IMG/VR virus record: IMGVR_UViG_3300031994_000003
Coordinates: 194,820-258,819 of that record
DNA from: a virus
Taxonomy: Duplodnaviria > Heunggongvirae > Uroviricota > Caudoviricetes
Length of the DNA: 64,000 nt
Strand: one strand, 5' to 3'
Shown here: piece after piece, positions 29,431-47,699 of the stretch
How the letters are laid out: every line of letters starts with the position of its first letter
How positions within the stretch are numbered: position 1 is the stretch's first letter
Made by a program: the position numbers and the translations under genes
Notes under the pieces: generated by a model
What the model saw: the letters and a program-made list of their open reading frames with translations, nothing else
Told to the model about the DNA's origin: nothing
Databases searched by the model: none

Positions 29431-29433
29431 TCA

Positions 29434-29678: not shown

Positions 29679-29688
29679 ATTATAAAAA

Positions 29689-29764: not shown

Positions 29765-29765
29765 A

Positions 29766-30216: not shown

Positions 30217-30236
30217 ACTATGAAAAAATAATATTA

Positions 30237-30647: not shown

Positions 30648-30654
30648 AATATAT

Positions 30655-30731: not shown

Positions 30732-30737
30732 ATATTA

Positions 30738-30825: not shown

Positions 30826-30828
30826 ATA

Positions 30829-30914
30829 TGGTGCCTGGAGCGGGAGTTGAACCCGCATGGCTTTCGCCGCTAGTTTCTAAGACTAGTGTGTCTAACCAGT
30901 TGCACCACCCAGGC
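30829..30914 (-). tRNA. tRNA-Leu (TAG), class II
   Basis: GCCTGGG...CTAGT-CTTAGAA-ACTAG-variable GGCGAAAGCC...GCGGG-TTCAACT-CCCGC-TCCAGGC-A-CCA. Confidence 0.85.
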
Positions 30915-30942
30915 ATATAGGAGTATTATAATACTCCATTTA

Positions 30943-31227
30943 TTAATATAAATTCCAATCTATTTTACCGCTAATAAATCGTTTTGCGGTAGTTTTATTA
31001 TAAACTAAATCTTCATAATTTTTATTCAAGTTATTATTTATTTTATGACGTATTACTTTATTTAAATATCGTTTATAATATTTCTTTAAATGCGGACGAC
31101 CCTTTGATCTAACATAACGATATTTATATACATCAAAATATGCACCACTATAATAGCTTCTAGACTCATTTGCTAATTTTTTAAGTCTTCTTTTAGTTAT
31201 TTGATCTCTATATCTAAAGTTTCCCAT
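30943..31227 (-). CDS. small highly basic protein (94 aa)
   Basis: Lys/Arg/Tyr-rich intact ORF inside the tRNA array. Confidence 0.35.
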   Translation of the reverse strand: MGNFRYRDQITKRRLKKLANESRSYYSGAYFDVYKYRYVRSKGRPHLKKYYKRYLNKVIRHKINNNLNKNYEDLVYNKTTAKRFISGKIDWNLY

Positions 31228-31250
31228 ATAAATATTTCCTTTCTATATAA

Positions 31251-31335
31251 TGGTGGCCAGGGTAGGACTCGAACCTACGAACCCGTTAGGGAGCAGATTT
31301 ACAGTCTGCTGACTTTGCCGCTTTGCTACCTGGCC
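31251..31335 (-). tRNA. tRNA-Tyr (GTA), class II
   Basis: GGCCAGG...GCAGA-CTGTAAA-TCTGC-variable CCCTAACGGG-...-AGGTTCGAGTCCT-ACCCTGGCC-A-CCA. The anticodon arm is identical to E. coli tRNA-Tyr. Confidence 0.85.
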
Positions 31336-31372
31336 ATGTAAAGAGCATAAATTAAATTATGCTCTGAAATAT

Positions 31373-32602: not shown

Positions 32603-32634
32603 TCCTGTTCTCCTATTTTCTCCTTTTTATTTTA

Positions 32635-32710
32635 TGGTTGGAGGGGGCGGACTTGAACCGCCGACCTCAGGGTTATGAGCCCTGCAAGCTACCAACTGCT
32701 CCACCCTCCA
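32635..32710 (-). tRNA. tRNA with CAT anticodon, likely initiator tRNA-fMet
   Basis: TGGAGGG (weak U1-A72 pair)...CAGGG-CTCATAA-CCCTG shows three consecutive G-C pairs at the base of the anticodon stem, an initiator hallmark. Then GGCGG-TTCAAGT-CCGCC-CCCTCCA-A-CCA. Confidence 0.7.
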
Positions 32711-32963
32711 ATGTAGTTATTATAATATTCAATAGTAAAAAGCGTTTCCACTTGGTTCTAAAATTAGCTTATAAAAATTAATTATAAGCAAATTTTAAAA
32801 ATTATTATCTATCATTATTTGTATTTTGAGTGTCCATATATCCTTTAAAGTCTTCATATGAAGAGTCAATATATTTGGCAGCTGCAACTATACCAATAAT
32901 GATAGCAATTGTGAAAATAATACTTACTATCATAATACTTGCTCCTTTTTTTAATTTTTTATT

Positions 32964-33039
32964 TGGTGACGGCGGAGGGACTCGAACCCTCGTATGTCAG
33001 GATGAAAACCTGATGTGTTAGCCTCTTCACCACGCCGCC
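32964..33039 (-). tRNA. tRNA-Glu (TTC)
   Basis: GGCGGCG...TCAGG-TTTTCAT-CCTGA...GAGGG-TTCGAGT-CCCTC-CGCCGTC-A-CCA. Confidence 0.8.
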
Positions 33040-33400
33040 GTTATGATGCATAAAGCATCTAAAAATGGTTTGTTTAATTAATAGATGACATATAAACCAT
33101 TACAAAAAAGTCTGCCATCTTGTATAAAAATTTCTTCATATTTTTAATCTCCAATCTAGGTTTTAGCGTCTTTTATCTTGACGAGATGATTAGAGAGTAT
33201 TATTTAGGTTATAAGAGAATCGGCAATGGACCATACTCAATGAGTCATTTCCAACGTCTATCTCTTATCTCATAGCATTAGCTACGGGTTTTATAGACTT
33301 TGCGCCTTGTCTGTGCTATAACTTAAAAAGTTATATCTATAGTTATCACTCCTATCAACAACGTTCAAGGGCTCAGCTATAACTTTTTGTTCCTTTAATT

Positions 33401-33477
33401 TGGCGGTCCGGACGAGACTCGAACTCGCGACCTCCGCAGTGACAGTGCGGCATTCTAACCAGCTGAACTACCGGACC
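33401..33477 (-). tRNA. tRNA-Asp (GTC)
   Basis: GGTCCGG...CCGCA-CTGTCAC-TGCGG...GCGAG-TTCGAGT-CTCGT-CCGGACC-G-CCA. Confidence 0.85.
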
Positions 33478-33521
33478 ATAGAAAAATAAGTAATCAAAAC
33501 ATAGATTACTTATTGAGCATT

Positions 33522-34241
33522 TTATATAACATAATTGTTAAATTCTTCTATTTCTATTGGTTCAAACATTTGTCGTTCAATACATACACATTGACTATTT
33601 ACTGTTTTAGTATGATATTCTGCTAATGTAATTTTATCTTTTGTCATTGAATGAACATGTCCATAGATAAAGAAGAATGGTACATTTTGATTCATTTTAT
33701 CAGGTCTAAATGGTATATGACTTAATATAAAATGTTGTTTTAAAACAGTTCCTCCTCCTCGTCTGAAAGGAATAACTTCTTTAAATCCAGCATTTTCATA
33801 AAATGATTTAGGCAAATTATCATGATTACCCATTATCATTCTTTTTTCACCATTAAGTTTTCCTACTAATTCTCTTAGGTATTCTTTATTACCCATACCA
33901 AAATCACCTAAAAACCAAACTGTATCTGAATTCTTAACTTTTTTGTTCCATTTATAAACTATCATATCATCATGATATTTTAAAAATGTTTTTATTGTTT
34001 CTAAATCATTATCTTTGAATGCTTTGTTAATAATATTAACCCAATCATCAACAGATTTTTCATTAGAAACATGCTCAATAATATATTCTGCAGTAGCATA
34101 GACTCTACTGGGTTCATATTTCAATATGTTTTTATGATTAAAATGAAGATCGCTAATAAAATATGTTTTCATATTTTCATCCTCCTTTATAATATTTTCT
34201 GGCAGGGCCGGCATGATTCGAACATGCGATGACGGAGTCAA
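33522..34241 (-). CDS. calcineurin-like metallophosphoesterase (Ser/Thr phosphatase-like)
   Basis: Motifs ISDLHF, FLGDFGMGN, MGNHDN and YGHVHS. Length is 239 aa. Confidence 0.65.
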   Translation of the reverse strand: MTPSSHVRIMPALPENIIKEDENMKTYFISDLHFNHKNILKYEPSRVYATAEYIIEHVSNEKSVDDWVNIINKAFKDNDLETIKTFLKYHDDMIVYKWNKKVKNSDTVWFLGDFGMGNKEYLRELVGKLNGEKRMIMGNHDNLPKSFYENAGFKEVIPFRRGGGTVLKQHFILSHIPFRPDKMNQNVPFFFIYGHVHSMTKDKITLAEYHTKTVNSQCVCIERQMFEPIEIEEFNNYVI

Positions 34242-34275
34242 AGTCCGTTGCCTTAACCAGCTTGGCTACGGCCCT
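34200..34275 (-). tRNA. tRNA-Gln (TTG)
   Basis: AGGGCCG...ACGGA-CTTTGAC-TCCGT...GCATG-TTCGAAT-CATGC-CGGCCCT-G-CCA. Confidence 0.85.
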
Positions 34276-34352
34276 ATAAATATATGGCATAATAGTCATA
34301 TAGTATATATTGTAATAGCTAATCTATCCTAGACTAACTCTTTTTGTTATAT

Positions 34353-34429
34353 TGGCGGAGACTGTGTGACTCGAACACACGACCCTCTGATTAACAGTCA
34401 GATGCTCTAACCAACTGAGCTAAGCCTCC
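34353..34429 (-). tRNA. tRNA-Asn (GTT)
   Basis: GGAGGCT...TCTGA-CTGTTAA-TCAGA...GTGTG-TTCGAGT-CACAC-AGTCTCC-G-CCA. Confidence 0.85.
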
Positions 34430-34434
34430 AAATA

Positions 34435-34510
34435 TGGTGGAGTCAATGGGGATTGAACCCACGACCTCCTGCGTGCAAAACAGGCGCTCTCCCAACTGAG
34501 CTATGGCCCC
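34435..34510 (-). tRNA. tRNA-Ala (TGC)
   Basis: GGGGCCA...CCTGT-TTTGCAC-GCAGG...GTGGG-TTCAATC-CCCAT-TGACTCC-A-CCA. The G3-U70 Ala identity pair is present, with one C5-A68 mismatch. Confidence 0.8.
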
Positions 34511-35504
34511 AAGTAAAGACTCCTTAGACATCTTAACCAGATGATAAGGATAGCTATTCCTCTCATCCTAAGGTACATCTTTACACTGATTTTAGATTGA
34601 TAGACCTCGTATTTAGTAAATGTACTAATAGCTTTAACACAGCCAAGTTCATTATTATTCCTAATAATTTTTGCTTCTAGACATATCTATTTTTTTGTCT
34701 AAAATTGAGGTATCGTAGATATGACCTAATATTTTGCACTAACACATAATGCTTACCTAGACGATGGAAAATATTAGGATTTATATTTATCTACTAACAG
34801 GTACAACCTGCTCATCTAGGGTACGTTCCCTAGAGTTCCCTTTGCTAACGTGTCCGGTGGGTGGGCTGTTGCAACAGCCGAACGGGTTTTAATGTGTTTC
34901 ACGCAGTCTTTCCTTCAGCCGCGCCCCGTCGCGGATTGGGTTCTTTTTACGTTTATTCCTTACGGGTTATCCAGTTACGTGATTTAAGCCGCAGCACCAT
35001 TTCTGGATCACTTATTCCTTCTGGGTTTAAACGACCATGCCTGTTTTCTTTAATCCGTCCGCCATGCTCTTTAAAAGAGTTTAGGTTAGAGTGATCGTTG
35101 TATGGTTTTCCTTCCATTGGAACAACTAAGTTCCTCTATTAAAATCCATTGAGCGAGGGCCGTGGTATTTCACATTCAGACCCTCAAAACTGTCAATTGA
35201 ATGATATTCTAAGCGTCATTCCCGCAAGTGCATGTATTTATTTATTGTGCGCCCCCTTATACACAGGCCCATAGTGGTATAGTAGGTTAGGTACTATACA
35301 CCCTTCTTTGTTCAGGCATTCCTCCTGAAAAGTTATTTATTAAACCTTTATTCTCCTACCCTTTTATATCAGGCTGACCTGCTTTGCCTACACAATCCAA
35401 GTTATCTCAACTAAATTGCTTCCAACGAGTTTATCTACTTTCGTAGTATCAAGGGTACAGGTCAATATTTTAATATAATTATTAAATTATATAAATATCA
35501 TTTC
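34511..35504 (-). ncRNA. large GC-enriched structured non-coding region, candidate large ornate ncRNA (ROOL/GOLLD-like class) between tRNA-Ser and tRNA-Ala
   Basis: About 1 kb has no ORF longer than 77 aa. The core from about 34790 to 35460 is conspicuously GC-richer than the AT-rich background. It contains many perfect local hairpins (GGCTGTTG-CAACAGCC, CCGCG..CGCGG) and long-range complementarity (GATCACT at 35001 with AGTGATC at 35087). It is flanked on both sides by tRNA genes on the same strand. Strand is assumed from the flanking tRNAs. Confidence 0.5.
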
Positions 35505-35591
35505 TGGCGCCGACTGAGGGATTCGAACCCCCAAACCTTTTACGGCCGACGGTTTTCAAGACCGCTGCATCCGCCACTCTGCCAAGCCGGC
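35505..35591 (-). tRNA. tRNA-Ser (TGA), class II
   Basis: GCCGGCT-TG-GCA-GAGTGGCGGA-TGC-A-GCGGT-CTTGAAA-ACCGT-variable arm-GGGGG-TTCGAAT-CCCTC-AGTCGGC-G-CCA. Confidence 0.85.
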
Positions 35592-35609
35592 ACATAAGAT
35601 AGATAAAAA

Positions 35610-36053
35610 TTATCTATCAAATTCACCAGCATAATACATTTTTAATAGATTATGAGCTGGCCTAATTTCTCTATTAGTTAAATCTGTTGCTCGTATGATT
35701 TCATTTGTTTTTGGATAATACATAAATAAATTTAATTTATTTACTATAAAGGTAATATTTAATTTATCATTATTATCATTAGATATTTCAGTATTCTCAA
35801 ATAATTCATAAGATACATAATTTAACACAGTTTCATCATTTGTTATAATGACGATATCCTTATTATTATCTTTAACCTCCGATAAGAATCTTCCATATGC
35901 TAATTCATTATTTCTATAACCAACTGATCTGTATAGAATAGTAATGTCTGCAGATGGATGTAATTTGCTTATTTTTTCATATGCATTTGCATTAATAGTT
36001 TCTTCATCTTCTGTTAAATCATCTTCTTGCATTTCAATTAAATACATATACAT
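35610..36053 (-). CDS. hypothetical protein (147 aa)
   Basis: Intact ORF between tRNA genes. Confidence 0.35.
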   Translation of the reverse strand: MYMYLIEMQEDDLTEDEETINANAYEKISKLHPSADITILYRSVGYRNNELAYGRFLSEVKDNNKDIVIITNDETVLNYVSYELFENTEISNDNNDKLNITFIVNKLNLFMYYPKTNEIIRATDLTNREIRPAHNLLKMYYAGEFDR

Positions 36054-36092
36054 ATTATTTTTTCCTCTTTTCCTCTTTTATTATTTGGTATG

Positions 36093-36168
36093 TGGTGTGA
36101 CGTGGGGGATTTGAACCCTCGACCTTCTGAGCCACAATCAGACGTTCTACCATCTGAACTAACGCCAC
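36093..36168 (-). tRNA. tRNA-His (GTG) with A73 discriminator; a G is encoded at position -1
   Basis: (G)-GTGGCGT-TA-GTTC...TCTGA-TTGTGGC-TCAGA...GAGGG-TTCAAAT-CCCCC-ACGTCAC-A-CCA. The discriminator is A rather than the bacterial C73. Confidence 0.8.
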
Positions 36169-36183
36169 CATGTATTATTTTTT

Positions 36184-36258
36184 TGGAGCGGCATGTCGGA
36201 GTTGAACCGGCACCCTCAGTTTGGAAGACTGAAATACTAACCATTATACTAATACCGC
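36184..36258 (-). tRNA. tRNA-Gly (TCC)
   Basis: GCGGTAT...TCAGT-CTTCCAA-ACTGA...GCCGG-TTCAACT-CCGAC-ATGCCGC-T-CCA. Confidence 0.8.
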
Positions 36259-36259
36259 A

Positions 36260-36334
36260 TGGAGCAGAGAACGGGAATCGAACCCGCGCCTTCACCTTGG
36301 CAAGGTGATATACTAGCCGTTATACTACCTCTAC
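36260..36334 (-). tRNA. tRNA-Gly (GCC)
   Basis: GTAGAGG...TCACC-TTGCCAA-GGTGA...GCGGG-TTCGATT-CCCGT-TCTCTGC-T-CCA. Confidence 0.8.
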
Positions 36335-36559: not shown

Positions 36560-38002
36560 TTATACTGATAATTTATAGACAGCGTTTCCACAATCATAGA
36601 TTCTATATAATCCAGCAGCTTCTGTAATCTGTAGCTCTGTTTTATTATCATCATAAAATTCTGGTAACTTTGTTTTCAATCTTTGTTTCATATAATTAAA
36701 TCGATGTAGTCTAAGTCCATTTTTTATATAGAAATAATCTGGCTTAGATACATGATCTAATGTAAATCCATTTATACTATATACATTTGACTCTAATGAT
36801 GTAAATCTTAAATCAGCATATGTTATAATGTTTTTAATATAAAATTGTTTTAAAGCATGTTTTAATAATTTACTAAAACCACCAATTACTCTAACAGATG
36901 TTGCATATCTAACCAATTCATATGTGTCTTCAATAGGCTTTTTATTTCCTAAACAAACTCTTGGCTTTGCAAATGTCATTATTGCAACTAATTCATCATT
37001 ATATACTAACCCACAATTAAATTGTGATTTATCAGCACCTTGTATGTGATTTTGCTCTAAAAAATTATTTTTTATATGAGATAGAACATTATATACAATG
37101 CTACATTCTCTAGCATATATATTTGTTTTATTTTTATTTAATATTGACATTAATTTGTTTTTAATTATATCTTGTTTATTTTCCCATTCGTCAGAAAAAA
37201 TATTAATCACTCTTATATTCATGTTTTTAAAATAATTCATTTTATCCATATGATAATATTTATCTCTAAATTTAGAACTATGCCAATATATACCATCATA
37301 CTCAATTCCAAGATTTAATTCTGGAATAAATATATCTAATTCCTGACCATTATCAAACTTTTTATTTCGTTCAATTTTATAATCAGAAATTGATTCAATA
37401 TAATTTGCAAAGTTTTCTTCTTCTTTTGATGAGTTGAATTTCCTTGCACATACCGGACATCTTCTTCCATTAGTAAATCTATTAAATGTTGTTTGATATA
37501 TAGTCCCACAAGTTTTATGTTTAATATTAAAAAATGTTTTATTATCAGCATATTCATTAATCATAGGCTCATATTCAGGATCAATTTGATTAATTTTCTT
37601 AATAACTTCTTCTTTTGCATACTTTGGAGTACCATAGCAATTGGGGCAACCATGACCATGGAGAATATCCCCTGGTCTCATTGTAAAAGTAGTTTCACAT
37701 TTAATACATTTAAAACTGGATGGAGTATTTGCTCCATTATATGTAATACATTCATAATCAATATTTTTTTGTTGGAGTTCTTGATTAAATTCTTCTACAG
37801 TTTTCTTATGTGTGCCAAAACAATATGGGCATCTATGTCCATGTGCTGACCAATCAGAAAATCTAACAAAATAATCTTTTCCACAAACTTCATGTTTAAT
37901 ATTAATTTTTTCTTTATTATTTTTATATTCTTTTGATAATAATTTATAACCGGGTTCCGCCTCAACGGCGTCTTTTACATCTTCATATGCTAGTCGTTTC
38001 AA
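36560..38002 (-). CDS. zinc-ribbon repeat protein with Vsr/DUF559-like endonuclease domain (candidate homing endonuclease)
   Basis: Four repeated CxxC...HxC/CxxC ribbons (CPYCFGTHKK, CIKCETTF, CPNCYGTPKY, CPVCARKF) are followed by LDIFIPELNLGIEYDGIYWHS, which matches the DUF559/Vsr-like E-x-D-G-xx-H motif. Length is 480 aa. Confidence 0.55.
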   Translation of the reverse strand: MKRLAYEDVKDAVEAEPGYKLLSKEYKNNKEKINIKHEVCGKDYFVRFSDWSAHGHRCPYCFGTHKKTVEEFNQELQQKNIDYECITYNGANTPSSFKCIKCETTFTMRPGDILHGHGCPNCYGTPKYAKEEVIKKINQIDPEYEPMINEYADNKTFFNIKHKTCGTIYQTTFNRFTNGRRCPVCARKFNSSKEEENFANYIESISDYKIERNKKFDNGQELDIFIPELNLGIEYDGIYWHSSKFRDKYYHMDKMNYFKNMNIRVINIFSDEWENKQDIIKNKLMSILNKNKTNIYARECSIVYNVLSHIKNNFLEQNHIQGADKSQFNCGLVYNDELVAIMTFAKPRVCLGNKKPIEDTYELVRYATSVRVIGGFSKLLKHALKQFYIKNIITYADLRFTSLESNVYSINGFTLDHVSKPDYFYIKNGLRLHRFNYMKQRLKTKLPEFYDDNKTELQITEAAGLYRIYDCGNAVYKLSV

Positions 38003-38139
38003 TTAAAGTCACCTCGTAAAATCTTTATTTACCACCATGTGTCGTAATCTACAACCATAATTATAATTAATTGTTCTATATATTTTTTTTAAAAAAATAA
38101 AAAAATGTATAAAAAATTAAAAAAAGATTAAGGAAACCC

Positions 38140-39879
38140 TTAATCTTTTGTAAATTCGTATAATGTTACTACGCAGTCTTTACCAATTTGAGTAAGGCCT
38201 CTAATAACTTCTCCATTAGGTCCGACTAAATTAGATTTTGAGAATGTAAGTTTATCTGCTTCTTCATTTGCTTGTATAGAATAGACGCCCCTTATGAACA
38301 CTGTATCACCATCATAGTCTGCACCCATTGCTTTAATAACACCATTACCAAGTATTGTTGTTCCTACAAATTCATAGTATGATGATGGTCTTATTCTAAA
38401 ATAATTCTTATCTGAACTAATTCTGTCATCATCTTTATATGCATCTAATAACATTTCTATAGTTTCTTGATTAGTATATATAAATGGATATCTATCATAA
38501 TAAAAATAATCATCACTATCTAAATCTAATTTAAGATATACTTCTCTTGTTTTTGCAGTAGAATTAATTAACACTCTTGCAGGATAAATATTCTTAATAT
38601 TTGTAACTGGGTGTCTTGTAATTAATACATGTTTATTCTTAACAGCTTTTTGTGCAGCCATCATAAATATATCTGCATATGTTAAACGACGAATATGAGC
38701 ATTTCTATTATTCTTTGCATCTGCTTCACTAGTAAATTCATAAATATTTGGACATACGACCATTTCTTCATTTGTTTGTCTGTCTTTTATATCAATACTA
38801 AATTCATCAAATCTTTCTTCACCAGACTTAATGAATCTACTCATCATTTTTTCAATATCATTCATTGATATTTGAGATACACTTAATTTAATATTTGTAT
38901 TATAATTATTATAAATAGTTGTTAAAATATCATCATTAATAATTTTATATGCTTCATGTACAATAAATGGGTGAAATGCACCTAATACTGATATTAACGT
39001 AATACCGGCGTAACCGAATGGAACGACTGTTTTATCCATAGATTTTGTATCTGAAATAACTGGTGCAACAATAACTGTATATGCACCATAATCAATAGTC
39101 TTACCAATTAAACTACGTTTTAATAATGAATTTTTTGAATTTCCAACAAATTCATTTGTTTTTGTATTTAATGATTTTCCAGTAATAGGTCCCATTGTAA
39201 TATTATATAATTTTAATAATGTATTTTGAATTCTAGTTCTAGTAGCATTACCAAAGATATCAAAATCAAAACTCATTTTCATTGAACGACAAGCAGAAAT
39301 TAACTCTTTATATGTTTGATTAATAACGTCACCTAGTGATCTTGAGTCTGCTTGCTCTTCTCTATAAAATGGCGGTAATACTAACCATTTGCTTACAAAG
39401 AATTCTTCTTTCTTTAATAATTGTAAGAATTTTAATCTTGTTTTCTTATCAATAGAATCTATTTCAGATTCTTCAAGTTCATCAATCCATTTGATCTTAT
39501 CAAAATTATTATAAATAAAATCCAATCCTGTTTCGGCATGGGGCGTATCTTCAGGAACAGTTTTTATCTTCCTATTACCATCAACAATAGCATATTTCTC
39601 ACCAATAATAATATCTCTAATATTACTCATTCTACTTGAAATAATAGAATAAACAACTGGATTTATATAATAACCTTTTAGATCAATATAACCAAATATA
39701 TTCTTTCTTTCTTCTTCTGAATAACCAAATATTTCATATGAAAATAAGCCATCATCAGTTGGTAACTTATTTGGTTGCCAGAAAATTGGATTCGTAACTT
39801 CTTTACATCCATTTAATTTTATAAATTCATCAATATTAAACATATCTAGAATCATTAATATCACCAAATTTCTTTTCAA
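38140..39879 (-). CDS. multisubunit RNA polymerase beta-prime subunit, N-terminal part (split subunit)
   Basis: GLFSYEIFG and NIFGYIDL match beta-prime GLFCAKIFG and RMGHIEL. The catalytic loop GADYDGDTV matches NADFDGD and lies near the C-terminus of the 579 aa ORF. Confidence 0.75.
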   Translation of the reverse strand: MKRNLVILMILDMFNIDEFIKLNGCKEVTNPIFWQPNKLPTDDGLFSYEIFGYSEEERKNIFGYIDLKGYYINPVVYSIISSRMSNIRDIIIGEKYAIVDGNRKIKTVPEDTPHAETGLDFIYNNFDKIKWIDELEESEIDSIDKKTRLKFLQLLKKEEFFVSKWLVLPPFYREEQADSRSLGDVINQTYKELISACRSMKMSFDFDIFGNATRTRIQNTLLKLYNITMGPITGKSLNTKTNEFVGNSKNSLLKRSLIGKTIDYGAYTVIVAPVISDTKSMDKTVVPFGYAGITLISVLGAFHPFIVHEAYKIINDDILTTIYNNYNTNIKLSVSQISMNDIEKMMSRFIKSGEERFDEFSIDIKDRQTNEEMVVCPNIYEFTSEADAKNNRNAHIRRLTYADIFMMAAQKAVKNKHVLITRHPVTNIKNIYPARVLINSTAKTREVYLKLDLDSDDYFYYDRYPFIYTNQETIEMLLDAYKDDDRISSDKNYFRIRPSSYYEFVGTTILGNGVIKAMGADYDGDTVFIRGVYSIQANEEADKLTFSKSNLVGPNGEVIRGLTQIGKDCVVTLYEFTKD

Positions 39880-41069: not shown

Positions 41070-41106
41070 CTATATAAAAATAAAGGAAGAGTATTTCTAC
41101 TCTTCC
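41070..41106 (-). terminator. hairpin GGAAGAGTA-TTTC-TACTCTTCC overlapping the stop of the beta N-part gene
   Basis: Perfect 9 bp stem followed by a T-rich stretch on the minus transcript. Confidence 0.5.
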
Positions 41107-42644
41107 TCATCAGATTTTGGCGTAAAATATCCACCATCATAAACTTTAACAAATGGAACTAATGTACCACTTGTTCCTGGATCACCAGCATTAGATGCAA
41201 TTAATGATAAACGTCCAGTATAACTTGGATGTAATGAACGTTGATCTAATGAAACTGTACTAGAATATGCTTGAGGTCCATGGAATGTATATCTTAATAA
41301 TGCTCCATATAAATTAAATTCATTTGTTGAATTGAAATAATGAAGTAATTCTGAAGTTATACATTCTTTAATTAATAGCATTGGAGTTAATCCAGTAAAT
41401 ATTTTTTCAATATTTTGAACACTTACTGTAGATGAACTGAATATTGTATAAATCTTATTTCCAAAATATGCTCTTAATGGGAATAATAAATATTCATACA
41501 AACGAAGACGCTTATTTGTTAAATCTTGTCCATCAGCATTTGCTAATTCATCAAAATTTAACATAATATATTCCATAATTGTAAATACATCTTTCTTATA
41601 TTTACTTGGAATTCTCATAATTTTTCTAGTTGGTTCATCAATTAATCTCTCTAATGAGATAAATACTCCTTTTGCTTTTTCATATTTCTTAAATATGTCA
41701 GTAGTTTGAGAAAATGCATCAGTTAATTTATCTAACCAATACCACATATTTGTTAAATCTTCATATGAGAAAACAAGATTCTTTTTCTTATCTTTTTTCT
41801 TTGGAGATTTACAAAAACCAAATAATGCTAATGCTGCTTGATAATTTGGTTCATTAATTTTTTCAGTTGGTACGGAGTAATATACACCTTGAGTTTTATC
41901 TCCTTTAACTGAAAAGACTGTTCTGTCATCTTCAACTAAGTCTGCATAACTATTTGAAAATTTTATATCTGTTTTCAAGTATTCATTAAAATAATCAAGT
42001 ATTCCATCATCTTGTTCTGCTAAAAAAGCATCTACATCATCAATAACAGGATGTTTTTCAACTAATTTATTTAATGCATATTTACTCATAATATAAATTA
42101 ATGGTGATACACATTTTTCAAATGTTGCAAATTCAAATATTGGCATATCAGTTAAATTAACAGCACCATTTTCAGATTCCATGTTAAATCTATTATTTAC
42201 TAACATTGTGATTGGCATTGTCATAGCCTTAAATGAAGTTCCTCGTCCAAAACCATAACTTGAAGAATCTACAATCTGCCAAATTAGGAAATAACGAATA
42301 CCTTCATTAATATAAAATGTTTTATCTAACATTTTATTAATATATAAATCTCTCTCAATTGGTTTATCTAATCCATCAATAGTAACTTTATAATGAATCT
42401 TATTTAATCTTGATGGGGCAACAGCTTTATAATATTTTCCTTGTTGCTTAATAGGACCAAAATTAGATTCATCTGTCTCTAAAGTTATATCTTCTCTATT
42501 AATATGGATTTGTGGAATAATTTTTAAATCTTCAAATATATCCCTAACTTTTTCTAATATTTCTGAATCATCTCTTGACATGATAAAGTCATCATTAAAT
42601 TTTTCAGGAAGCCTATCCATATATCTAGATAATAATTCTTTCAT
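41097..42644 (-). CDS. multisubunit RNA polymerase beta subunit, N-terminal part (split subunit)
   Basis: RSLHPSYTGRLSLIASNAGDPGTSGTLVPF near the C-terminus matches the beta motif [25 protein letters not shown]. Confidence 0.65.
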   Translation of the reverse strand: MKELLSRYMDRLPEKFNDDFIMSRDDSEILEKVRDIFEDLKIIPQIHINREDITLETDESNFGPIKQQGKYYKAVAPSRLNKIHYKVTIDGLDKPIERDLYINKMLDKTFYINEGIRYFLIWQIVDSSSYGFGRGTSFKAMTMPITMLVNNRFNMESENGAVNLTDMPIFEFATFEKCVSPLIYIMSKYALNKLVEKHPVIDDVDAFLAEQDDGILDYFNEYLKTDIKFSNSYADLVEDDRTVFSVKGDKTQGVYYSVPTEKINEPNYQAALALFGFCKSPKKKDKKKNLVFSYEDLTNMWYWLDKLTDAFSQTTDIFKKYEKAKGVFISLERLIDEPTRKIMRIPSKYKKDVFTIMEYIMLNFDELANADGQDLTNKRLRLYEYLLFPLRAYFGNKIYTIFSSSTVSVQNIEKIFTGLTPMLLIKECITSELLHYFNSTNEFNLYGALLRYTFHGPQAYSSTVSLDQRSLHPSYTGRLSLIASNAGDPGTSGTLVPFVKVYDGGYFTPKSDEEE

Positions 42645-44083
42645 TATATAAACACCCCATCTTGATAAAGGCCATCTTCTTCAACAACCTGTTCATTATT
42701 ATTAATTTTTTCTTCTAATCTTTCAGACATAAATGCCCTTTTAGTTTCCAAATCAAATTTATTTAAATATTTTAAAATTCTTTCACCTTGACCACACATT
42801 ACCATATATGCAACTTGACCTTTTGCTTTTTGCATATCAATATTAGTATCACCATGAGCATAGTTATTAATTGTTACTCTAAGATGTCTATACAAATATC
42901 TTCTATTTGTTGGTTTATTATTATTGGTATGATCAAATGCGATTGATGTAACATTTCTATATTGACCAGTTTGGCCAAACATTTTTTCAGGTTTTAATGT
43001 AAAATATTCAATTAAACCATTTTTAGTATAAACTCTTTCAAATATATTTGTAATTAAATTCTTTGAAATTGGTCTATCAGATGAAAATGTTATATCATCA
43101 CAATATTGTGTAAAAGTAATTCCTGTTGATCTACAAATATTATAAATATCTCTTGCAGATTTTGCTACTATTTGATTTGCAATAATTGGAGAAATTGGAT
43201 TACCTAAACATAATCCATTATCAACTAGCATTTTATCTAAAAAATATTTCATTAATGAATATCCACGATATGAATCATTAAAAGCATATCTTACAACTCT
43301 TGTTACTAATGGTCTCTTACATGAAGGGAAAAAGTTACTAATATCTGCTTTTTCAATATAACGATGATCTTTATGTGGATATGCGTTGTCAATTATAGAA
43401 GACCCACTCTTATATGCAATTTGAATTCCTCTATTAATATCTTCATATGCTAATTTAAAGAATTTATTTAAATCTACTAATGAATCTAATATTTCATCAT
43501 TAGGTTTTGATAATAAACGAACTTTACCATTTGGCATAGTTCTTTCAAAATTAAAATAGATAGACTTATGTGTTCTATCTAATATTTTACATCCTACAAT
43601 TACTTTAAGAATTTGTGGATTTACAAATATCTCAAAATTATGTTCAGCTGATTGAATTACTGAAACCGCATCTTGTATTCCTTTGAATATATCTCTAACA
43701 AATATATTTTTTACTAAATCATTTTCATATTTATAATATAAATGTAATTCAGCTTGTGAGAATGTTGCACTACCATTTTGTTCATTTATTTTTGTTATTA
43801 TTTTAAATAAATATATTCCATCTTCTTTTAAATAAAATCTCCATATTCCTTCACTTTTTTCATTTTTGATATAATATAGATTATCACAAAAAGATTTATA
43901 ACTTATAGCGTTACGAACAACGTGTGCATCTTCAATAGCTCTACGCTCATCGGCTTCAAATTTTTCAATATCAGTTATTTCATTTTCATTAATTGGATAA
44001 AATATAAGACCATATCTATTTACATTTAATTGGTCTTGTGCAAAGCACAATATTTTTCCTCGATATTTAAACATGCGAAACAC
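42644..44083 (-). CDS. reverse transcriptase-like protein with roughly 190 aa N-terminal extension
   Basis: RT motif 2 KADISNFFPSC (D-I-x-x-F-F-x-S), motif 4 GLCLGNPISPIIANQ (QG..SP-like) and motif 5 YCDDITFSS (YxDD), in the correct order and spacing. The stop overlaps the start of the beta N-part gene. Confidence 0.7.
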   Translation of the reverse strand: MFRMFKYRGKILCFAQDQLNVNRYGLIFYPINENEITDIEKFEADERRAIEDAHVVRNAISYKSFCDNLYYIKNEKSEGIWRFYLKEDGIYLFKIITKINEQNGSATFSQAELHLYYKYENDLVKNIFVRDIFKGIQDAVSVIQSAEHNFEIFVNPQILKVIVGCKILDRTHKSIYFNFERTMPNGKVRLLSKPNDEILDSLVDLNKFFKLAYEDINRGIQIAYKSGSSIIDNAYPHKDHRYIEKADISNFFPSCKRPLVTRVVRYAFNDSYRGYSLMKYFLDKMLVDNGLCLGNPISPIIANQIVAKSARDIYNICRSTGITFTQYCDDITFSSDRPISKNLITNIFERVYTKNGLIEYFTLKPEKMFGQTGQYRNVTSIAFDHTNNNKPTNRRYLYRHLRVTINNYAHGDTNIDMQKAKGQVAYMVMCGQGERILKYLNKFDLETKRAFMSERLEEKINNNEQVVEEDGLYQDGVFI

Positions 44084-44095
44084 ATGCTCCTTTCT

Positions 44096-44326
44096 TTATT
44101 CTATTCCTTTTATACAAATTTTTGTATTAATTTCTTCTCCGGCCTTTGATATAAAATTCACTTCAGCATATGTTGCATCATAATCTACACTTACATAAGT
44201 ATTTACATCTTCACCAAGATTTGTTGAAGCTCCAACTACTGATTCTATAACATCATCAAATGAATCAGCAGTCACTTCTTTAAATAATTCATCCTTATAT
44301 GATATTTCATAATTTTTATTTTTCAT
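44096..44326 (-). CDS. hypothetical acidic protein (76 aa)
   Basis: Intact ORF immediately upstream of the RT gene. Confidence 0.3.
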   Translation of the reverse strand: MKNKNYEISYKDELFKEVTADSFDDVIESVVGASTNLGEDVNTYVSVDYDATYAEVNFISKAGEEINTKICIKGIE

Positions 44327-44391
44327 ATTTGCTCCTGAAATTTAAGAAGTATTCAGGAAAAATACTTCTTGAGTAATGCCTACAAAGAAAG

Positions 44392-45021
44392 CTATCTTCT
44401 AGCTTTCTTATTATTTTGTTTTTTATCTTTGTAAATTTTAACTTTTGTATCAGAAGAAATTTTCATCTTTGTTTGAACCTTATCTTCTAAATATTTTGCT
44501 TCATTATAACTATATGCATTATTTCTTTCAATCATATTTATAATATTACTTCCATTATCTCTTCCACGATTAATAAATGATGTATCAAATAGATCAATTG
44601 TAATCGGGGTATCTAATGTTGCTGTAAATTGACTTATTGCTTTAAAAGTTACATTCTTTCTAGCTTTATTATCAATTATATTAATATTATAATTCATAAT
44701 ATTAATTCCATAATATCCAAATGAAGTGTCTTTATAAAATACTAAATATTCTCCAACAAATTTATGTTTGTTGTTCGTGCGAGGACACTCATATATTTCA
44801 TATGTGTTATCATCTACAAATGATGATCTTCCATTAGGTAGGTTTGTGAATCTAATTGCTTTACCCATTAGGTCTTTTCCTGTTGTTCTATAGCAACGAA
44901 TGTTTTGAAGATCATACTTAGAAACATCGATGCCTACTTTTTTTGTTGATTTTACAATTAATTCACGTAATTTCCTATAATGTACTGTTTGGTGTAATGG
45001 TGTTATGTTATTTCCTGCCAT
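44392..45021 (-). CDS. hypothetical protein (209 aa)
   Basis: Intact ORF with a basic C-terminal tail. Confidence 0.35.
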   Translation of the reverse strand: MAGNNITPLHQTVHYRKLRELIVKSTKKVGIDVSKYDLQNIRCYRTTGKDLMGKAIRFTNLPNGRSSFVDDNTYEIYECPRTNNKHKFVGEYLVFYKDTSFGYYGINIMNYNINIIDNKARKNVTFKAISQFTATLDTPITIDLFDTSFINRGRDNGSNIINMIERNNAYSYNEAKYLEDKVQTKMKISSDTKVKIYKDKKQNNKKARR

Positions 45022-45107
45022 AATACCACACCCCTTTCTCTTTAAAGACTTAAAATTACTAGGACTATTTTAAATCTTATTAATAATATATTTTTTAATA
45101 ATTATTT

Positions 45108-45470
45108 TTAAAAGTAATATGAATCACAAGAGCTAATAAATTCTCTTCTATTTTCATAATATTCATAATCAATTCCTATTAAATCTAATTCATCCTTAAT
45201 GTTTTGTACAAATTTATCAAATTCATATTCTTCATCTCGTTGCATATGTTTTGCAATAACACCAACTAATGTTGGGTATTGTTTTGATGTCACACCAAAA
45301 TAACCAGCTCTGTCGGTTACTGATCCATCTACAACTTCTGCATATTTTAATTCACCTGAATAATGTGTGTAATCAATGTTATATTTTTCTTTTATTAAAT
45401 TTTCAATGTCTCTAATCAAATCTTCTTGTTTAAAGTCCTCAATGATAAAACTAAAATTAATTTTTTTCAT
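45108..45470 (-). CDS. hypothetical protein (120 aa)
   Basis: Intact ORF. Confidence 0.35.
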   Translation of the reverse strand: MKKINFSFIIEDFKQEDLIRDIENLIKEKYNIDYTHYSGELKYAEVVDGSVTDRAGYFGVTSKQYPTLVGVIAKHMQRDEEYEFDKFVQNIKDELDLIGIDYEYYENRREFISSCDSYYF

Positions 45471-45503
45471 AAATTGTACCTCAATGTAAAAGAAGGAAGA
45501 AGA

Positions 45504-47699
45504 CTATTCATCTTCTTCCAAATTATCATCTAATTTTAATTCAAGTACAGATAAATAGTTATCTAAAATCTGTCTTGTGATTGGTTTGTATTCTAATTTT
45601 CGTGCATTAATACTTAATGGATTTTTAGCTGTAACTAATTGTTCAACTAAATCTTGACGATCATCCATTGAAGTAGAATATGTACGAAGTAATTTTGCTA
45701 CTAAATCTGGGCGTTTAGTAACAAATAGTGCCTCAGTTTCCATTTCACCAAGACGTAATGGGTTATCATTATAAAGTGCTTTACGTTCTTTTCTAAGTGT
45801 TGATTTAGAAGGCATGTTTTTAATATTAAGCATACCTTTAGAACGAATTGAAAGTTTATTAGAGCTTTCATGTTTTAGTCTTATAAAATATTCATCGCCA
45901 ATTATTAATGGCTTTTCAATATTTTCACATTTATATTTTGTAACCCATTCTGGATGATCTTTAAATAATTCAACAAGATCTTCCATTTTTGTATTTCCAA
46001 CGAATGGTGGCTCATGAATATAAATACCGTCTTCTATAACTTTATCTAAAAAATCATGTGCTTTTACTCTATTCATTGTCATCATCTCAATATCAACAAA
46101 TTCATTTTGTTCTTTATTGATATGTTTTAAGAAATCTAAATAGATTTCTTTCTTTTCTTCATATGTTGGAGCTTCTTTCATTGCTTCAACAACATGATCT
46201 GCTATGAAATTGATATATTGTTCAAATAATTGTGCTGGATTAATACGTCCAATTACACCAAGTGGATTTAAACAAATATCTGCTCTATGCTTACCATCAG
46301 CAGTATGCGGCATTAGATCATCTGGAAGTATTGCTGAACAAACACCTTTATTTCCATAGCGTCCGGTACATTTAGCACCAACTGTTAATGGATTTTCTTT
46401 TAATATTGTGATTTCTAATTTGAAATTATCATATCTCTTTCCATCACTTCTCCATGAAATACGATCATCAATATACTCATGTGCATACTTCCATTTATAA
46501 TCTAAATCATCAGTATATTTATTTTTATTTAATGTTCGTTTTAATGGACGTTTGTAATAAAATCCATATTCTTTACGTTCTTGAATATAAGCATCTCTTT
46601 CTGTTCCAGATAAAGATTCTAAATATTCTTCTTCCGTATAAGCTGGAATTATTGTTTCTAATAATTCTGCTAATTCTTTATAATAATTATATTGCTCCTC
46701 GTAAATCTTTACAATTTCTCGTAAAAATTCATTACCATTTTTATTATCTTTTCCATATGCTTTCTGTTTTAATAATTTCAATGGAGCATTAGAATAAATG
46801 TTAATATCTGCAACTTCTCCACCACATGTGTAATAGATTTGGTCTGTTATATCAATTTCTTTCATTCTATGTTGTTGAAAATTATATAAAACATTTTGAG
46901 AATCTTCTCTTCTTGATGCAACTAAAATATTTCCTTTAGTATGCTCGCCAACTTTTGGTATTGAATGATATTCTGGAATTTCTTTATCCTTTTCATAATC
47001 AGAATATAGATTTAATAAAATATCATTTGTATTTACAGAGATTGTTGTTTTCTCAACTTTAAAACTTGTTAATTTCTTTGCGGCAGATTCAGAAATAACA
47101 AATCCATCTTCATAAGTTAATCCATATGCTGGAAGATAACATGCTTTAAGATTTACACCATATGCAAAATTACCATCATCATCATAGTTATCAGACTTAT
47201 AAATAAATTCATTTTCCTTAACTATATCCCCAACTTCTCTATCACTTAAACAATCATTAACACGATATCCATACTCTTCACAAATATTTACTGCATGATT
47301 AACATCAATACAATCATAAATACCATTGTCATATTGAACAACTAAAGTATAATTAGCTGCATTCTTACGAACTTTACCAATTATTCTAAATTGTCTTTGA
47401 GCTTTCTTATATGCAATAGAATATTTACCAACTTGATTTTCAAATCCTGTAAATATTTTTGGAAATTCTGGATTCTTTAAATGTACTGTTTGATTAATGT
47501 GGTTAGAAAACATTTGAAGTCTTTGCGTATCACAGTTATTAACAAATGGACTCAATAATTCTTCACTAAATGGATAGTGAGGATTTTCTTCTGCATCCTT
47601 TGGAATATTAAAATTAAAATAAGGTGTATTATCAGAAATTTTTAATGTTTTCTTTTTCTTTTTTTGTTGGGCTTTCCACTCTTTAAAGAAATTTGCCAT
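45504..47699 (-). CDS. multisubunit RNA polymerase beta subunit, C-terminal part (split subunit)
   Basis: GRYGNKGVCSAILPDDLMP and LNPLGVIGRINPAQLFE match beta GRHGNKGVISKINPIEDMP and LNPLGVPSRMN. RLGEMETEAL...STSMDD matches the beta C-terminus KFGEMEVWALEA...TVKSDD. Confidence 0.8.
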   Translation of the reverse strand: MANFFKEWKAQQKKKKKTLKISDNTPYFNFNIPKDAEENPHYPFSEELLSPFVNNCDTQRLQMFSNHINQTVHLKNPEFPKIFTGFENQVGKYSIAYKKAQRQFRIIGKVRKNAANYTLVVQYDNGIYDCIDVNHAVNICEEYGYRVNDCLSDREVGDIVKENEFIYKSDNYDDDGNFAYGVNLKACYLPAYGLTYEDGFVISESAAKKLTSFKVEKTTISVNTNDILLNLYSDYEKDKEIPEYHSIPKVGEHTKGNILVASRREDSQNVLYNFQQHRMKEIDITDQIYYTCGGEVADINIYSNAPLKLLKQKAYGKDNKNGNEFLREIVKIYEEQYNYYKELAELLETIIPAYTEEEYLESLSGTERDAYIQERKEYGFYYKRPLKRTLNKNKYTDDLDYKWKYAHEYIDDRISWRSDGKRYDNFKLEITILKENPLTVGAKCTGRYGNKGVCSAILPDDLMPHTADGKHRADICLNPLGVIGRINPAQLFEQYINFIADHVVEAMKEAPTYEEKKEIYLDFLKHINKEQNEFVDIEMMTMNRVKAHDFLDKVIEDGIYIHEPPFVGNTKMEDLVELFKDHPEWVTKYKCENIEKPLIIGDEYFIRLKHESSNKLSIRSKGMLNIKNMPSKSTLRKERKALYNDNPLRLGEMETEALFVTKRPDLVAKLLRTYSTSMDDRQDLVEQLVTAKNPLSINARKLEYKPITRQILDNYLSVLELKLDDNLEEDE

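What the first reader, a model, noticed from the sequence alone, without database searches (positions are those of the whole stretch)
42644..44083. Reverse-transcriptase-like gene embedded in the phage multisubunit RNAP gene cluster
The 479 aa ORF carries RT motif 2 (ADISNFFPS), a QG..SP-like motif 4 (GLCLGNPISPIIANQ) and the YxDD catalytic motif (YCDDITFSS). It has a roughly 190 aa N-terminal extension and a roughly 140 aa C-terminal extension. Its stop overlaps the start of the RNAP beta N-part gene, and it sits between the genes for the beta C-part and beta N-part, so it is co-transcribed with the phage transcription machinery. Its motif 4 has N after G, as in DGR RTs (IGNLTSQ), yet keeps SP. 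I see no room for a DGR template repeat next to it and no group II intron domain V. The RT therefore does not fit a DGR or a group II intron. It may be a defence-associated or UG-type RT, a retron, or an RT co-opted for a phage function. Two adjacent perfect hairpins at 44327..44391 (GAAAGCTA-GAAG-TAGCTTTC and AAGAAGTATT-CAGG-AAAATACTTCTT) and a 76 aa ORF lie immediately upstream and could be a cognate structured RNA plus partner.
Basis: partly seen in the sequence, partly recalled or inferred. Interest (0 to 1): 0.85.

Follow-up and report, generated by a model that had tools for sequence, protein, structure and literature searches.

The report
Retron-type reverse transcriptase in jumbo phage
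The ORF is a real, apparently active retron-family reverse transcriptase that a whole clade of giant AR9-like phages keeps in an early operon with an RNA polymerase subunit gene, but its RNA template and its job for the phage remain unknown.

Summary

Only the ~170-aa N-terminal domain is extra. The supposed C-terminal extension is the ordinary retron thumb. No DGR repeat pair and no group II intron RNA was found.

The window comes from an uncultivated AR9/PBS1-like jumbo phage. In about 13 related metagenomic loci the order is conserved: AR9-type early promoter, basic ~210-aa protein, structured RNA element, acidic ~75-aa protein (optional), RT, then non-virion RNAP beta-N (tightly coupled). 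RT divergence tracks RNAP divergence, which fits vertical inheritance.

Staphylococcus and Listeria jumbo phages carry a distant homolog with the same two-domain architecture (MarsHill gp206, Korn et al.). There it sits behind arrays of retron-like ncRNAs, and its function is unknown.

Hairpin 1 is a generic terminator-like hairpin. The GTAGGCA motif and hairpin 2 (covarying stems, UYCCUG loop) are locus-specific. No canonical msr/msd with a1/a2 repeats was found.

Verdict: a new variant of a known but uncharacterised kind. Moderately interesting.

The parts
45083..45091 (-). AR9-type early (virion RNAP) promoter motif ATATATTAT, 62 nt upstream of the 209-aa gene start. Probable start of the operon 209aa-76aa-RT-betaN.
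   Evidence: The annotated AR9 early promoters read AnATATATATTAT. The motif is found here. It is conserved 58-76 nt upstream of the 210-aa gene in 10 of 12 family loci, and absent between that gene and beta-N.
44392..45021 (-). Gene for a basic 209-aa protein (pI 9.7). It is the invariant upstream partner of the RT in this phage clade; function unknown.
44385..44409 (-). Hairpin 1 (AAGAAAGCUA-GAAGA-UAGCUUUCUU) straddling the stop codon of the 209-aa gene. Terminator-like and generic for this phage.
   Evidence: Hairpins of the same style lie at the ends of betaC (45519-45495), betaN (41108-41083) and beta' (38149-38122). It is present in all family loci, with G-U pairs on the sense strand.
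44377..44383 (-). Conserved single-stranded motif (G)GUAGGCA, usually 1-4 nt 3' of hairpin 1 (about 20 nt in L006 and L034).
   Evidence: Present at this spot in the window, L003, L005, L007, L031, L035, L037 and L038. Variants are AAGGCA in L006, L032 and L034, UAGGCU in L036 and UAGGCA in L042. GTAGGCA occurs only 3 times in the 64 kb, so it is not a general regulatory signal.
44344..44370 (-). Hairpin 2 (AAGAAGUAUU-UUUCCUG-AAUACUUCUU): a locus-specific stem-loop with a conserved pyrimidine-rich loop, just upstream of the RBS of the 76-aa gene.
   Evidence: Six unrelated stem sequences surround a conserved UYCCUG(G/A) loop in the window, L003/L005, L006, L007, L031 and L034. It is the only hairpin found that combines this loop with this intergenic position in each of those loci. 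It is absent in L032, L035, L036, L037 and L038. In L042 and L010 the motifs are rearranged inside one hairpin.
44096..44326 (-). Gene for an acidic 76-aa protein (pI 4.25). Conserved, but absent from some family loci.
   Evidence: Alignment of 8 homologs; pI 4.05-5.24. Absent in L006, L034 and L036. No match to Ugi or to the PDB or to GenBank phages.
43574..44083 (-). RT residues 1-170: a clade-specific N-terminal alpha/beta domain of unknown function.
   Evidence: Modelled with pLDDT 84-97 over residues 60-170. No sequence relatives outside its own cluster among 1.84 billion representatives. The full-length model aligns over 498 columns with a 500-aa viral protein that I infer to be the Staphylococcus jumbo-phage RT (E 2e-22, TM 0.59).
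42734..43561 (-). RT residues 175-450: retron-type fingers, palm and thumb. NAYPH is at 43373-43387, ADISNFFPS (motif A Asp247) follows, YCDD is at 43094-43105, and VTS stands where retrons have VTG.
41097..42644 (-). Non-virion RNAP beta subunit, N-terminal part (AR9 g105 homolog). Its start overlaps the RT stop (TAATG).
   Evidence: RT and betaN are adjacent (from a 14-nt overlap to a 25-nt gap) in L003-L008, L031, L032, L034-L037 and L042; in L038 the downstream ORF calls are split but the betaN match follows the RT.
45504..47699 (-). Non-virion RNAP beta subunit, C-terminal part (AR9 g089 homolog). It forms the upstream boundary of the interval.
   Evidence: Pfam RNA_pol_Rpb2_6 at 1.5e-23; 38% identity to AR9 g089.

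Best explanation
The ORF encodes a catalytically competent retron-clade reverse transcriptase. Residues 175-450 form the fingers, palm and thumb. A lineage-specific N-terminal domain of about 170 aa is fused in front. It has the same two-domain architecture as the 'retron-like' RT of Staphylococcus and Listeria AR9-like jumbo phages (MarsHill gp206). In this uncultivated clade of AR9-like jumbo phages it is a vertically inherited early gene. An AR9-type early promoter drives a four-gene operon: basic 209-aa protein, structured RNA element, acidic 76-aa protein, RT, and non-virion RNAP beta-N, with RT and beta-N translationally coupled.

Inferred mechanism: soon after infection the RT binds a structured phage RNA and copies part of it into a small cDNA (msDNA-like). 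That product, or the RT-RNA-protein complex formed with the 209-aa partner, serves the phage in conflict with the host or with competing phages, rather than in transcription itself.

The best candidate for the RNA partner inside the window is the conserved GUAGGCA motif plus the UYCCUG-loop hairpin on the operon's own transcript. A trans-encoded template elsewhere in the 333-kb genome is equally possible.

What is shown: RT identity, retron affinity, intact active site, operon structure, synteny and vertical inheritance, and conservation of the RNA element. What is inferred: that cDNA is made, which RNA is the template, and what the product does.
For: RT identity:
- Pfam RVT_1 is above its cut-off.
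- PADLOC retron RT models score up to 107 bits, E 2.6e-31.
- NCBIfam retron_St85_RT scores 118 bits.
- The profile search of the PDB finds retron RTs as 12 of 13 hits, the best at E 1e-27 over residues about 175-450.

Active site and retron motifs: N233, A234 and H237 (NAxxH), D247, Y327, D329 and D330 are invariant in 18 homologs that share 27-50% identity with the window protein (alignment-wide). The VTG motif is the majority form.

Synteny: the order [~210 aa]-[~75 aa]-RT-betaN holds in the family loci.

Early promoter: the motif is conserved upstream of the 210-aa gene in 10 of 12 loci, with none inside the operon.

Vertical inheritance: RT identity (33-55%) ranks like betaN identity (43-78%) and betaC identity (51-70%) across loci.

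RNA element: the motif and hairpin 2 are specific to this locus, with six different stems around one conserved loop and G-U pairs on the sense strand.

Relatives use ncRNAs: the RTs of Staphylococcus and Listeria jumbo phages share the architecture. They sit behind 1.1-1.2 kb arrays of 4-5 units. In the Staphylococcus phages these are about 200 nt each, with covarying a1/a2-like flanking repeats. Korn et al. (bioRxiv 10.1101/2020.12.14.422802) already proposed an ncRNA there.
Against: - No canonical retron ncRNA was found next to the RT. There is no a1/a2 pair (z about 0), no Rfam hit, and only about 65-100 nt of non-coding sequence.
- Hairpin 2 is missing in 5 of the family loci, and the most distant locus (L033) lacks the motif as well.
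- NCBIfam retron cut-offs are not reached.
- No recognisable retron effector is present.
- The RNA element could equally be a translational operator or an RNA processing site.
- Nothing in the sequence shows that cDNA is made.
Confidence: 0.5

Rival explanations
1. A phage-borne, retron-like exclusion or abortive-infection module. The RT with an RNA holds the basic 209-aa protein and/or the acidic 76-aa protein in check, as in retron toxin-antitoxin systems. The module fires against co-infecting phages or host factors. It would work like a bacterial retron defence system carried by a lytic phage.
For: All characterised relatives of this RT domain are retron defence RTs. The RT is always accompanied by the same 210-aa protein, as retron RTs are by their effectors. 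A small ORF lying between a structured leader and the RT recalls the type VI retron hybrid RNA, which carries a translationally repressed small toxin (10.1101/2025.10.22.683967); RT_VI is the second-best PADLOC profile. Korn et al. raised the exclusion idea for MarsHill.
Against: Neither partner has a known effector domain. The 76-aa gene is dispensable in three loci. The long-range pairing that would close a hybrid RNA is not supported. The gene behaves like core, vertically inherited phage equipment at a fixed position, unlike mobile defence cargo. It is also co-expressed with an essential RNAP subunit.
Confidence: 0.2
2. The RT is functionally tied to the phage transcription machinery. It could be an accessory factor of the non-virion RNAP, or it could make DNA needed for late, uracil-template-dependent transcription. 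That would explain why it is translationally coupled to beta-N.
For: RT and betaN are adjacent, with overlapping or nearly abutting stop and start codons, in nearly every locus, between the betaC and betaN genes.
Against: AR9 and PBS1 run the same non-virion RNAP with no RT, and their betaC...betaN interval holds ligase, Ku, HU and Ugi genes instead. The homologous RTs of Staphylococcus and Listeria phages are tens of kb from the RNAP beta-C (g089-homolog) gene. In L033 five other genes separate the RT from betaN.
Confidence: 0.07
3. The RT synthesises DNA without a retron-type RNA primer. It would be protein-primed or template-independent, as in AbiK, DRT4 or DRT9, with the novel N-terminal domain supplying the primer or the oligomerisation surface.
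For: No msr/msd RNA was found nearby. The N-terminal domain is unique, is confidently folded, and carries a conserved Y.FE.E segment.
Confidence: 0.1
4. A decaying remnant of a selfish retroelement that happens to sit in a variable region. It would have no function.
For: The betaC-betaN interval is variable between AR9 and this clade. No mobility or template RNA is visible.
Against: The full-length ORF and all catalytic residues are conserved across 18 homologs down to 27% identity. Position and partners are conserved, and divergence parallels the core RNAP genes.
Confidence: 0.03

Closest known systems
Retron-like RT of Staphylococcus jumbo phages (MarsHill gp206, PALS_2 gp015, S6, Madawaska, Machias) and Listeria phage LPJP1; Korn et al., bioRxiv 10.1101/2020.12.14.422802
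   Same: The host phages are also AR9-like jumbo phages. The proteins have the same length class (454-517 aa). They have the same architecture: an N-terminal domain of about 170-220 aa of unknown function followed by a retron-type RT. RT-domain identity is 29%. The predicted structures align over the full length. There is no DGR, no recognised effector, and the function is unknown.
   Different: The N-terminal domains show no sequence similarity. The Staphylococcus and Listeria genes are not near RNAP genes. They are followed by unrelated proteins of 265-291 aa (Staphylococcus) or 481 aa (Listeria), and preceded by a 1.1-1.2 kb array of 4-5 retron-like ncRNA units. The window's gene has no such array. 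It has different partners (209 aa, 76 aa) and is coupled to beta-N.
Bacterial retron RTs (type I-A Ec78/Eco7, type II-A St85/Sen2, Ec86/Eco1, type VI)
   Same: These are the best profile, sequence and fold matches across fingers, palm and thumb. They share the NAxxH, YxDD and VTG-type motifs.
   Different: Scores are below the NCBIfam family cut-offs (118 against 235 bits). The window protein has an extra N-terminal domain. No msr/msd with a1/a2 repeats was detected, and no known effector. It is encoded by a lytic jumbo phage inside an early operon with an RNAP subunit, not in a bacterial defence island.
Type VI retron hybrid RNA (Retron-Vpa2; 10.1101/2025.10.22.683967)
   Same: A structured leader, an RBS and a small ORF lie upstream of a retron-type RT on one transcript. 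RT_VI is the second-best PADLOC profile.
   Different: There is no HTH gene. The 76-aa protein is acidic rather than a hydrophobic-core toxin by any test made here. No inverted repeats close the RNA, and the small ORF is absent in some loci.
AR9/PBS1 early operon Ugi (g104) - beta-N (g105)
   Same: An early promoter, then a small or medium anti-host-type gene, then non-virion RNAP beta-N, in the same place in the genome map. The 209-aa model's top weak fold hits are UDG inhibitors.
   Different: AR9 has no RT. The 209-aa protein is basic (pI 9.7), not an acidic DNA mimic. There is no sequence similarity to Ugi.

Membership tests
Reverse transcriptase (RVT_1 superfamily) | Profile match above the curated cut-off, with the palm motifs including the motif-A Asp and YxDD | tested here: met
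   Pfam 38.4 bits against 29.6. D247 and Y327/D329/D330 are invariant.
Reverse transcriptase (RVT_1 superfamily) | Right-hand fingers-palm-thumb fold | tested here: met
   [not shown]
Retron (RT component) | RT belongs to the retron clade: best profile and structure matches are retron RTs, with the NAxxH and VTG motifs | tested here: met
   NAYPH is present. The window has VTS; VTG is the majority form among the 18 homologs.
Retron (RT component) | Reaches the curated cut-off of a named retron RT family (NCBIfam retron_St85_RT, Ec67, TIR) | tested here: not met
   118 against 235 bits, 68 against 450, and 75 against 600.
Retron (whole system) | Adjacent msr-msd ncRNA closed by a1/a2 inverted repeats, with a priming G after a1 | tested here: inconclusive
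   No Rfam hit, no conserved flanking inverted repeats, and only about 65 nt of non-coding DNA. A conserved motif plus hairpin exists but does not have the retron layout. The template could lie outside the 64-kb window.
Retron (whole system) | Production of branched msDNA | not testable with these tools
   Needs nucleic-acid analysis of infected cells.
Retron (whole system) | Co-encoded effector of a known retron type | tested here: not met
   The 209-aa and 76-aa partners have no PADLOC, Pfam, NCBIfam or PDB-sequence match.
Jumbo-phage retron-like RT (MarsHill gp206 type) | Unknown N-terminal domain of about 200 aa followed by a retron-like RT, in an AR9-like jumbo phage | tested here: met
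Jumbo-phage retron-like RT (MarsHill gp206 type) | Non-coding region of about 1.2 kb (ncRNA array) immediately upstream of the RT | tested here: not met
   The window has protein genes and only 12 and 65 nt of intergenic DNA upstream.
Diversity-generating retroelement | TR/VR near-repeat pair with adenine-specific mismatches, an Avd gene, and a DGR-clade RT | tested here: not met
   The self-comparison of the window found only AT-rich matches of 50-74 nt at 64-80% identity. The RT scores best with retrons.
Group II intron | Intron RNA domains (domain V), maturase X and En domains | tested here: not met
   [not shown]
UG/Abi/DRT defence RTs | Best match to a UG, Abi or DRT profile | tested here: not met
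   [not shown]

The most novel reading that the evidence does not exclude
The RT is a core early weapon of the AR9-like jumbo phages that lack Ugi. Together with the basic 209-aa protein, which has a weak Ugi-like fold, it would make a small, multicopy, possibly uracil-containing cDNA from a phage RNA. That cDNA would decoy or neutralise a host DNA-surveillance enzyme such as uracil-DNA glycosylase or a nuclease. It would take the place that the Ugi protein occupies directly upstream of beta-N in AR9/PBS1. If so, this would be the first retron-type RT used by a virus against its host rather than by a host against viruses.
Probability: 0.07. Interest if true: 0.9.

Novelty: new variant of a known kind. 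Interest (0 to 1): 0.55.

Why it matters
Retron RTs are known as bacterial anti-phage devices. What they do in strictly lytic jumbo phages is unknown.

This locus adds three observations:
- The RT is not a sporadic passenger. It has been a long-term, vertically inherited early gene in a whole clade of uncultivated AR9-like phages, locked between RNAP subunit genes.
- It comes with two new conserved partner proteins and a small conserved RNA element.
- It shares its two-domain architecture with the Staphylococcus and Listeria jumbo-phage RTs, whose upstream non-coding region turns out to be an array of retron-like ncRNAs.

Together these give a tractable comparative system for asking what a virus gains from a retron-type RT. 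The Staphylococcus phages are cultivable. The work may also yield compact RT/ncRNA pairs that could be used as tools.

Tried and rejected
- DGR: a self-BLAST of the window with mismatch typing found no TR/VR pair.
- Group II intron and other known RNAs: Rfam at gathering threshold over the whole window found only tRNAs and a tmRNA. Rfam at E<=10 over 43900-45300 gave only noise.
- Retron a1/a2 repeats: inverted-repeat searches in six loci and duplex folding between the leader and the region after the small ORF (z about 0) gave no conserved long-range pairing. One 18-nt complementarity in the window (44347-44364 with 44051-44068) is not conserved elsewhere.
- Hairpin 1 as a specific RNA: rejected, because the same stop-codon-straddling hairpins end other genes in the cluster.
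- GTAGGCA as a general promoter or terminator signal: rejected, with only 3 copies in 64 kb and one per family locus at this spot. It does not resemble the AR9 early promoter.
- The 5'-UTR hairpin after the early promoter: generic for early promoters in the window.
- The 76-aa ORF as an ncRNA or a Ugi homolog: it is a conserved protein, with no similarity to Ugi.
- The 209-aa protein as a Ugi-type DNA mimic: the fold hits are weak and the protein is basic.
- N-terminal domain homologs: none among 1.84 billion representatives.
- The 4-unit repeat at 16.9-17.3 kb as an RT template: the motif scan of IMG/VR gave only single chance hits and the family loci lack it. Left open.
- A formal covariation count on hairpin 2 was abandoned. 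Loop-length differences put the MAFFT alignment out of register, so the evidence is the direct listing of the stems.
- The afdb50 fold library was unavailable.
Full report
**Observation.** The minus-strand ORF 42644..44083 encodes 479 aa from GTG, or 476 aa from the ATG at 44074. An identical protein, P0001, lies on a 333-kb metagenomic contig. It carries the quoted motifs ADISNFFPS, GLCLGNPISPIIANQ and YCDDITFSS. Pfam RVT_1 matches above its gathering score, 38.4 against 29.6 bits. PHROGs places it in phrog_2825 'polymerase'.

Its stop overlaps the start of the next gene (TAATG). That gene is the homolog of AR9 g105, the non-virion RNAP beta N-part (30% over 503 aa). Gene 45504..47699 is the homolog of AR9 g089, the beta C-part (38%). 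No GenBank phage matches the region at DNA level. The window therefore comes from a new, distant AR9/PBS1-like jumbo phage.

**What kind of RT it is.** All evidence points to the retron clade.
- All 25 PADLOC hits listed are retron RT models: RT_II-A at 2.6e-31, RT_VI at 9e-28, and types XI, XII, I and III close behind.
- NCBIfam's best model is retron_St85_RT, but at 118 bits it is below the 235-bit cut-off.
- A profile of 18 homologs finds retron RTs as 12 of its 13 PDB hits. The best has E about 1e-27 and is aligned over residues about 175-450.
- NAxxH (NAYPH), the motif-A Asp and YxDD are invariant in all 18 homologs. The retron VTG motif is the majority form, and the window has VTS.

The 'C-terminal extension' is therefore simply the retron thumb. 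Only the N-terminal ~170 aa are extra. They fold confidently into an alpha/beta domain. They have no sequence relatives among 1.84 billion representative proteins.

The alternatives were tested and failed. No DGR repeat pair was found. No group II intron RNA or any other Rfam family apart from tRNAs and a tmRNA was found.

**Relatives and context.** Seventeen metagenomic homologs of 459-485 aa share 27-50% alignment-wide identity with it (33-55% in local alignments). In every contig long enough to judge, the order is [~210-aa protein]-[~75-aa protein]-RT-[~510-aa beta-N], usually right after beta-C (L003-L008, L031-L038, L042).
- The 75-aa gene is absent in L006, L034 and L036.
- RT and beta-N are adjacent, ranging from a 14-nt overlap to a 25-nt gap.
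- In the most distant locus, L033, five small genes intervene.
- RT identity to the window (33-55%) ranks like beta-N (43-78%) and beta-C (51-70%) identity. This fits vertical co-inheritance rather than mobile cargo.

AR9 early promoters read AnATATATATTAT. The same motif lies at 45083..45091, 62 nt upstream of the 209-aa gene. It also lies 58-76 nt upstream of the 210-aa gene in 10 of 12 loci, and never between that gene and beta-N. The four genes thus form a conserved early operon.

AR9 and PBS1 have the same betaC...betaN arrangement without an RT. Their interval carries ligase, Ku, HU and, directly upstream of beta-N, the UDG inhibitor Ugi.

**Known homologs.** The only GenBank phages with a full-length-type homolog are Staphylococcus jumbo phages (S6, PALS_2, MarsHill, Madawaska, Machias and others) and Listeria phage LPJP1. 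They share about 29% identity over the RT domain.

[quoted passage not shown] They found no DGR and no effector, noted a 1,200-bp non-coding region upstream that they hypothesised to hold an ncRNA, and left the function unclear.

The window's model aligns over 498 columns with a 500-aa viral protein (E 2e-22, TM 0.59). From its length I infer that this is the PALS_2-type RT. The two-domain architecture is therefore shared even though the N-domains have lost sequence similarity. In those phages the RT is tens of kb from the RNAP beta-C (g089-homolog) gene.

I looked at their non-coding region. It is an array of 4-5 tandem units, in the Staphylococcus phages about 170-210 nt each. Each Staphylococcus unit has a small hairpin, a conserved hairpin (loop AUGAAUACGU) with covarying stems, one or more variable GC-rich long hairpins, and flanking inverted repeats that covary between units (N..UAAAG / UUUA..N'). 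This is a retron a1/a2-like layout. The LPJP1 region also holds repeated units with a different conserved hairpin, but I inspected it only by eye. It is good comparative evidence that this phage RT lineage works with ncRNA templates.

The 76-aa ORF is a real, conserved acidic protein with pI about 4-5. It is not an RNA.

Hairpin 1 (44385..44409) straddles the stop codon of the 209-aa gene. It is of the same kind as the hairpins at the ends of the beta-C, beta-N and beta' genes, so it is a generic terminator-like element.

Two features are specific to this locus.
- An 8-mer, (G)GUAGGCA, lies directly after hairpin 1 in nearly all loci. It occurs once per locus and only three times in the 64 kb.
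- Hairpin 2 (44344..44370) has six unrelated stem sequences around a conserved UYCCUG(G/A) loop, in the window, L003/L005, L006, L007, L031 and L034. G-U pairs on the sense strand argue for an RNA-level structure.

Hairpin 2 is missing in five loci. In L042 and L010 the two motifs are packed into a single hairpin. No a1/a2-type closure was found. The idea of a type VI-like hybrid RNA is not supported by long-range pairing. The element is real and RT-locus-specific, but its role is open: RT binding site or template, translational operator, or processing site.

**Mechanism.** I commit to this reading: a catalytically active, retron-type RT expressed early with beta-N binds a structured phage RNA and makes a small cDNA that serves the phage. 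The adjacency to RNAP genes reflects shared early expression and inherited synteny, not a role in transcription (confidence about 0.5).

The rivals are a phage-borne retron-like exclusion or toxin-antitoxin module (0.2), protein-primed or untemplated synthesis (0.1), an accessory role with the non-virion RNAP (0.07) and a dead remnant (0.03). Only the RT identity, the operon, the synteny and the RNA conservation are shown. cDNA synthesis, the template and the biological role are inferred.

**Novelty.** Retron-like RTs in AR9-like jumbo phages were already reported, but are functionally uncharacterised. This one defines a new, deeply diverged clade with a new fixed context (early operon with beta-N), new partner proteins and a new small RNA element, and it lacks the adjacent ncRNA array. 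I rate it a new variant of a known kind, with interest 0.55.

The boldest reading not excluded is that the RT module replaces Ugi as an early anti-host device. The support is thin. Ugi homologs are detectable only in Bacillus AR9-like phages, while RTs occur only in the non-Bacillus ones. AR9's Ugi sits at the syntenic position. The 209-aa model has Ugi-like fold hits. Against this, Yersinia phiR1-37 shows neither gene in these searches, and Ugi-type proteins diverge beyond detection. I give it a probability of about 0.07.

Noticed in passing
window 27449-36334 (-): A large phage-encoded array of 29 tRNA genes plus a tmRNA (29766-30135, tag peptide ANKLIANAMINQVVFA*). The relative L007 also carries a tmRNA next to a tRNA gene.
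   Followed up: partly
window 34511-35504 (-): About 1 kb of GC-rich, ORF-free sequence inside the tRNA array, between tRNA-Ala and tRNA-Ser, which looks structured. It has no Rfam match even at E<=1 and no similarity to the family loci held. It may be an unknown large ncRNA or an intron-like element.
   Followed up: partly
window 16940-17342 (-), promoter motif at 17469-17477: Downstream of an AR9-type early promoter motif lie four tandem units, spaced 95, 82 and 106 nt. Each is closed by a 7-9 bp stem that covaries (UAGGUAC/GUACCUA versus UAGAUAC/GUAUCUA). Each has a conserved single-stranded RYACAGCAA right after the 5' arm. A terminator hairpin and tRNA-Glu follow. The motif gives 5 hits against 0.24 expected, with no Rfam hit. 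It could be an ncRNA array (a possible trans template for the RT) or iterons.
   Followed up: partly
L002 4200-5300 (PALS_2), L040 1370-2350 (SA1), L041 1450-2300 (Machias), L039 2250-3400 (LPJP1): The ~1.2 kb 'non-coding region' upstream of the RT in Staphylococcus and Listeria jumbo phages is an array of 4-5 tandem units. In the Staphylococcus phages each unit has a conserved hairpin, variable long hairpins and covarying flanking inverted repeats, which is a retron msr/msd-like layout. This suggests that several different msDNA-type templates serve one RT.
   Followed up: partly
[not shown]
   Followed up: partly
window 38122-38149, 41083-41108, 44385-44409, 45495-45519 (-): Gene ends in the RNAP cluster carry purine-rich hairpins (GAAGAAG...CUUCUUC) that straddle the stop codon and are followed by T-rich tails. 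Eight terminator-like sites were found against 1.5 expected.
   Followed up: no
L034 2603-3787: In one relative, an IS605-family TnpB gene (OrfB_IS605 / Cas12f-like) is inserted between beta-C and the 210-aa gene. This shows that the interval tolerates insertions.
   Followed up: no
window 36560-38002 (-): A 480-aa ORF lies between the beta' N-part gene and the tRNA array. It has repeated Cys-rich (zinc-ribbon-like) modules and an internal 53-nt repeat (37506-37558 and 37881-37933). It may be a homing-endonuclease-type protein. It was not analysed.
   Followed up: no
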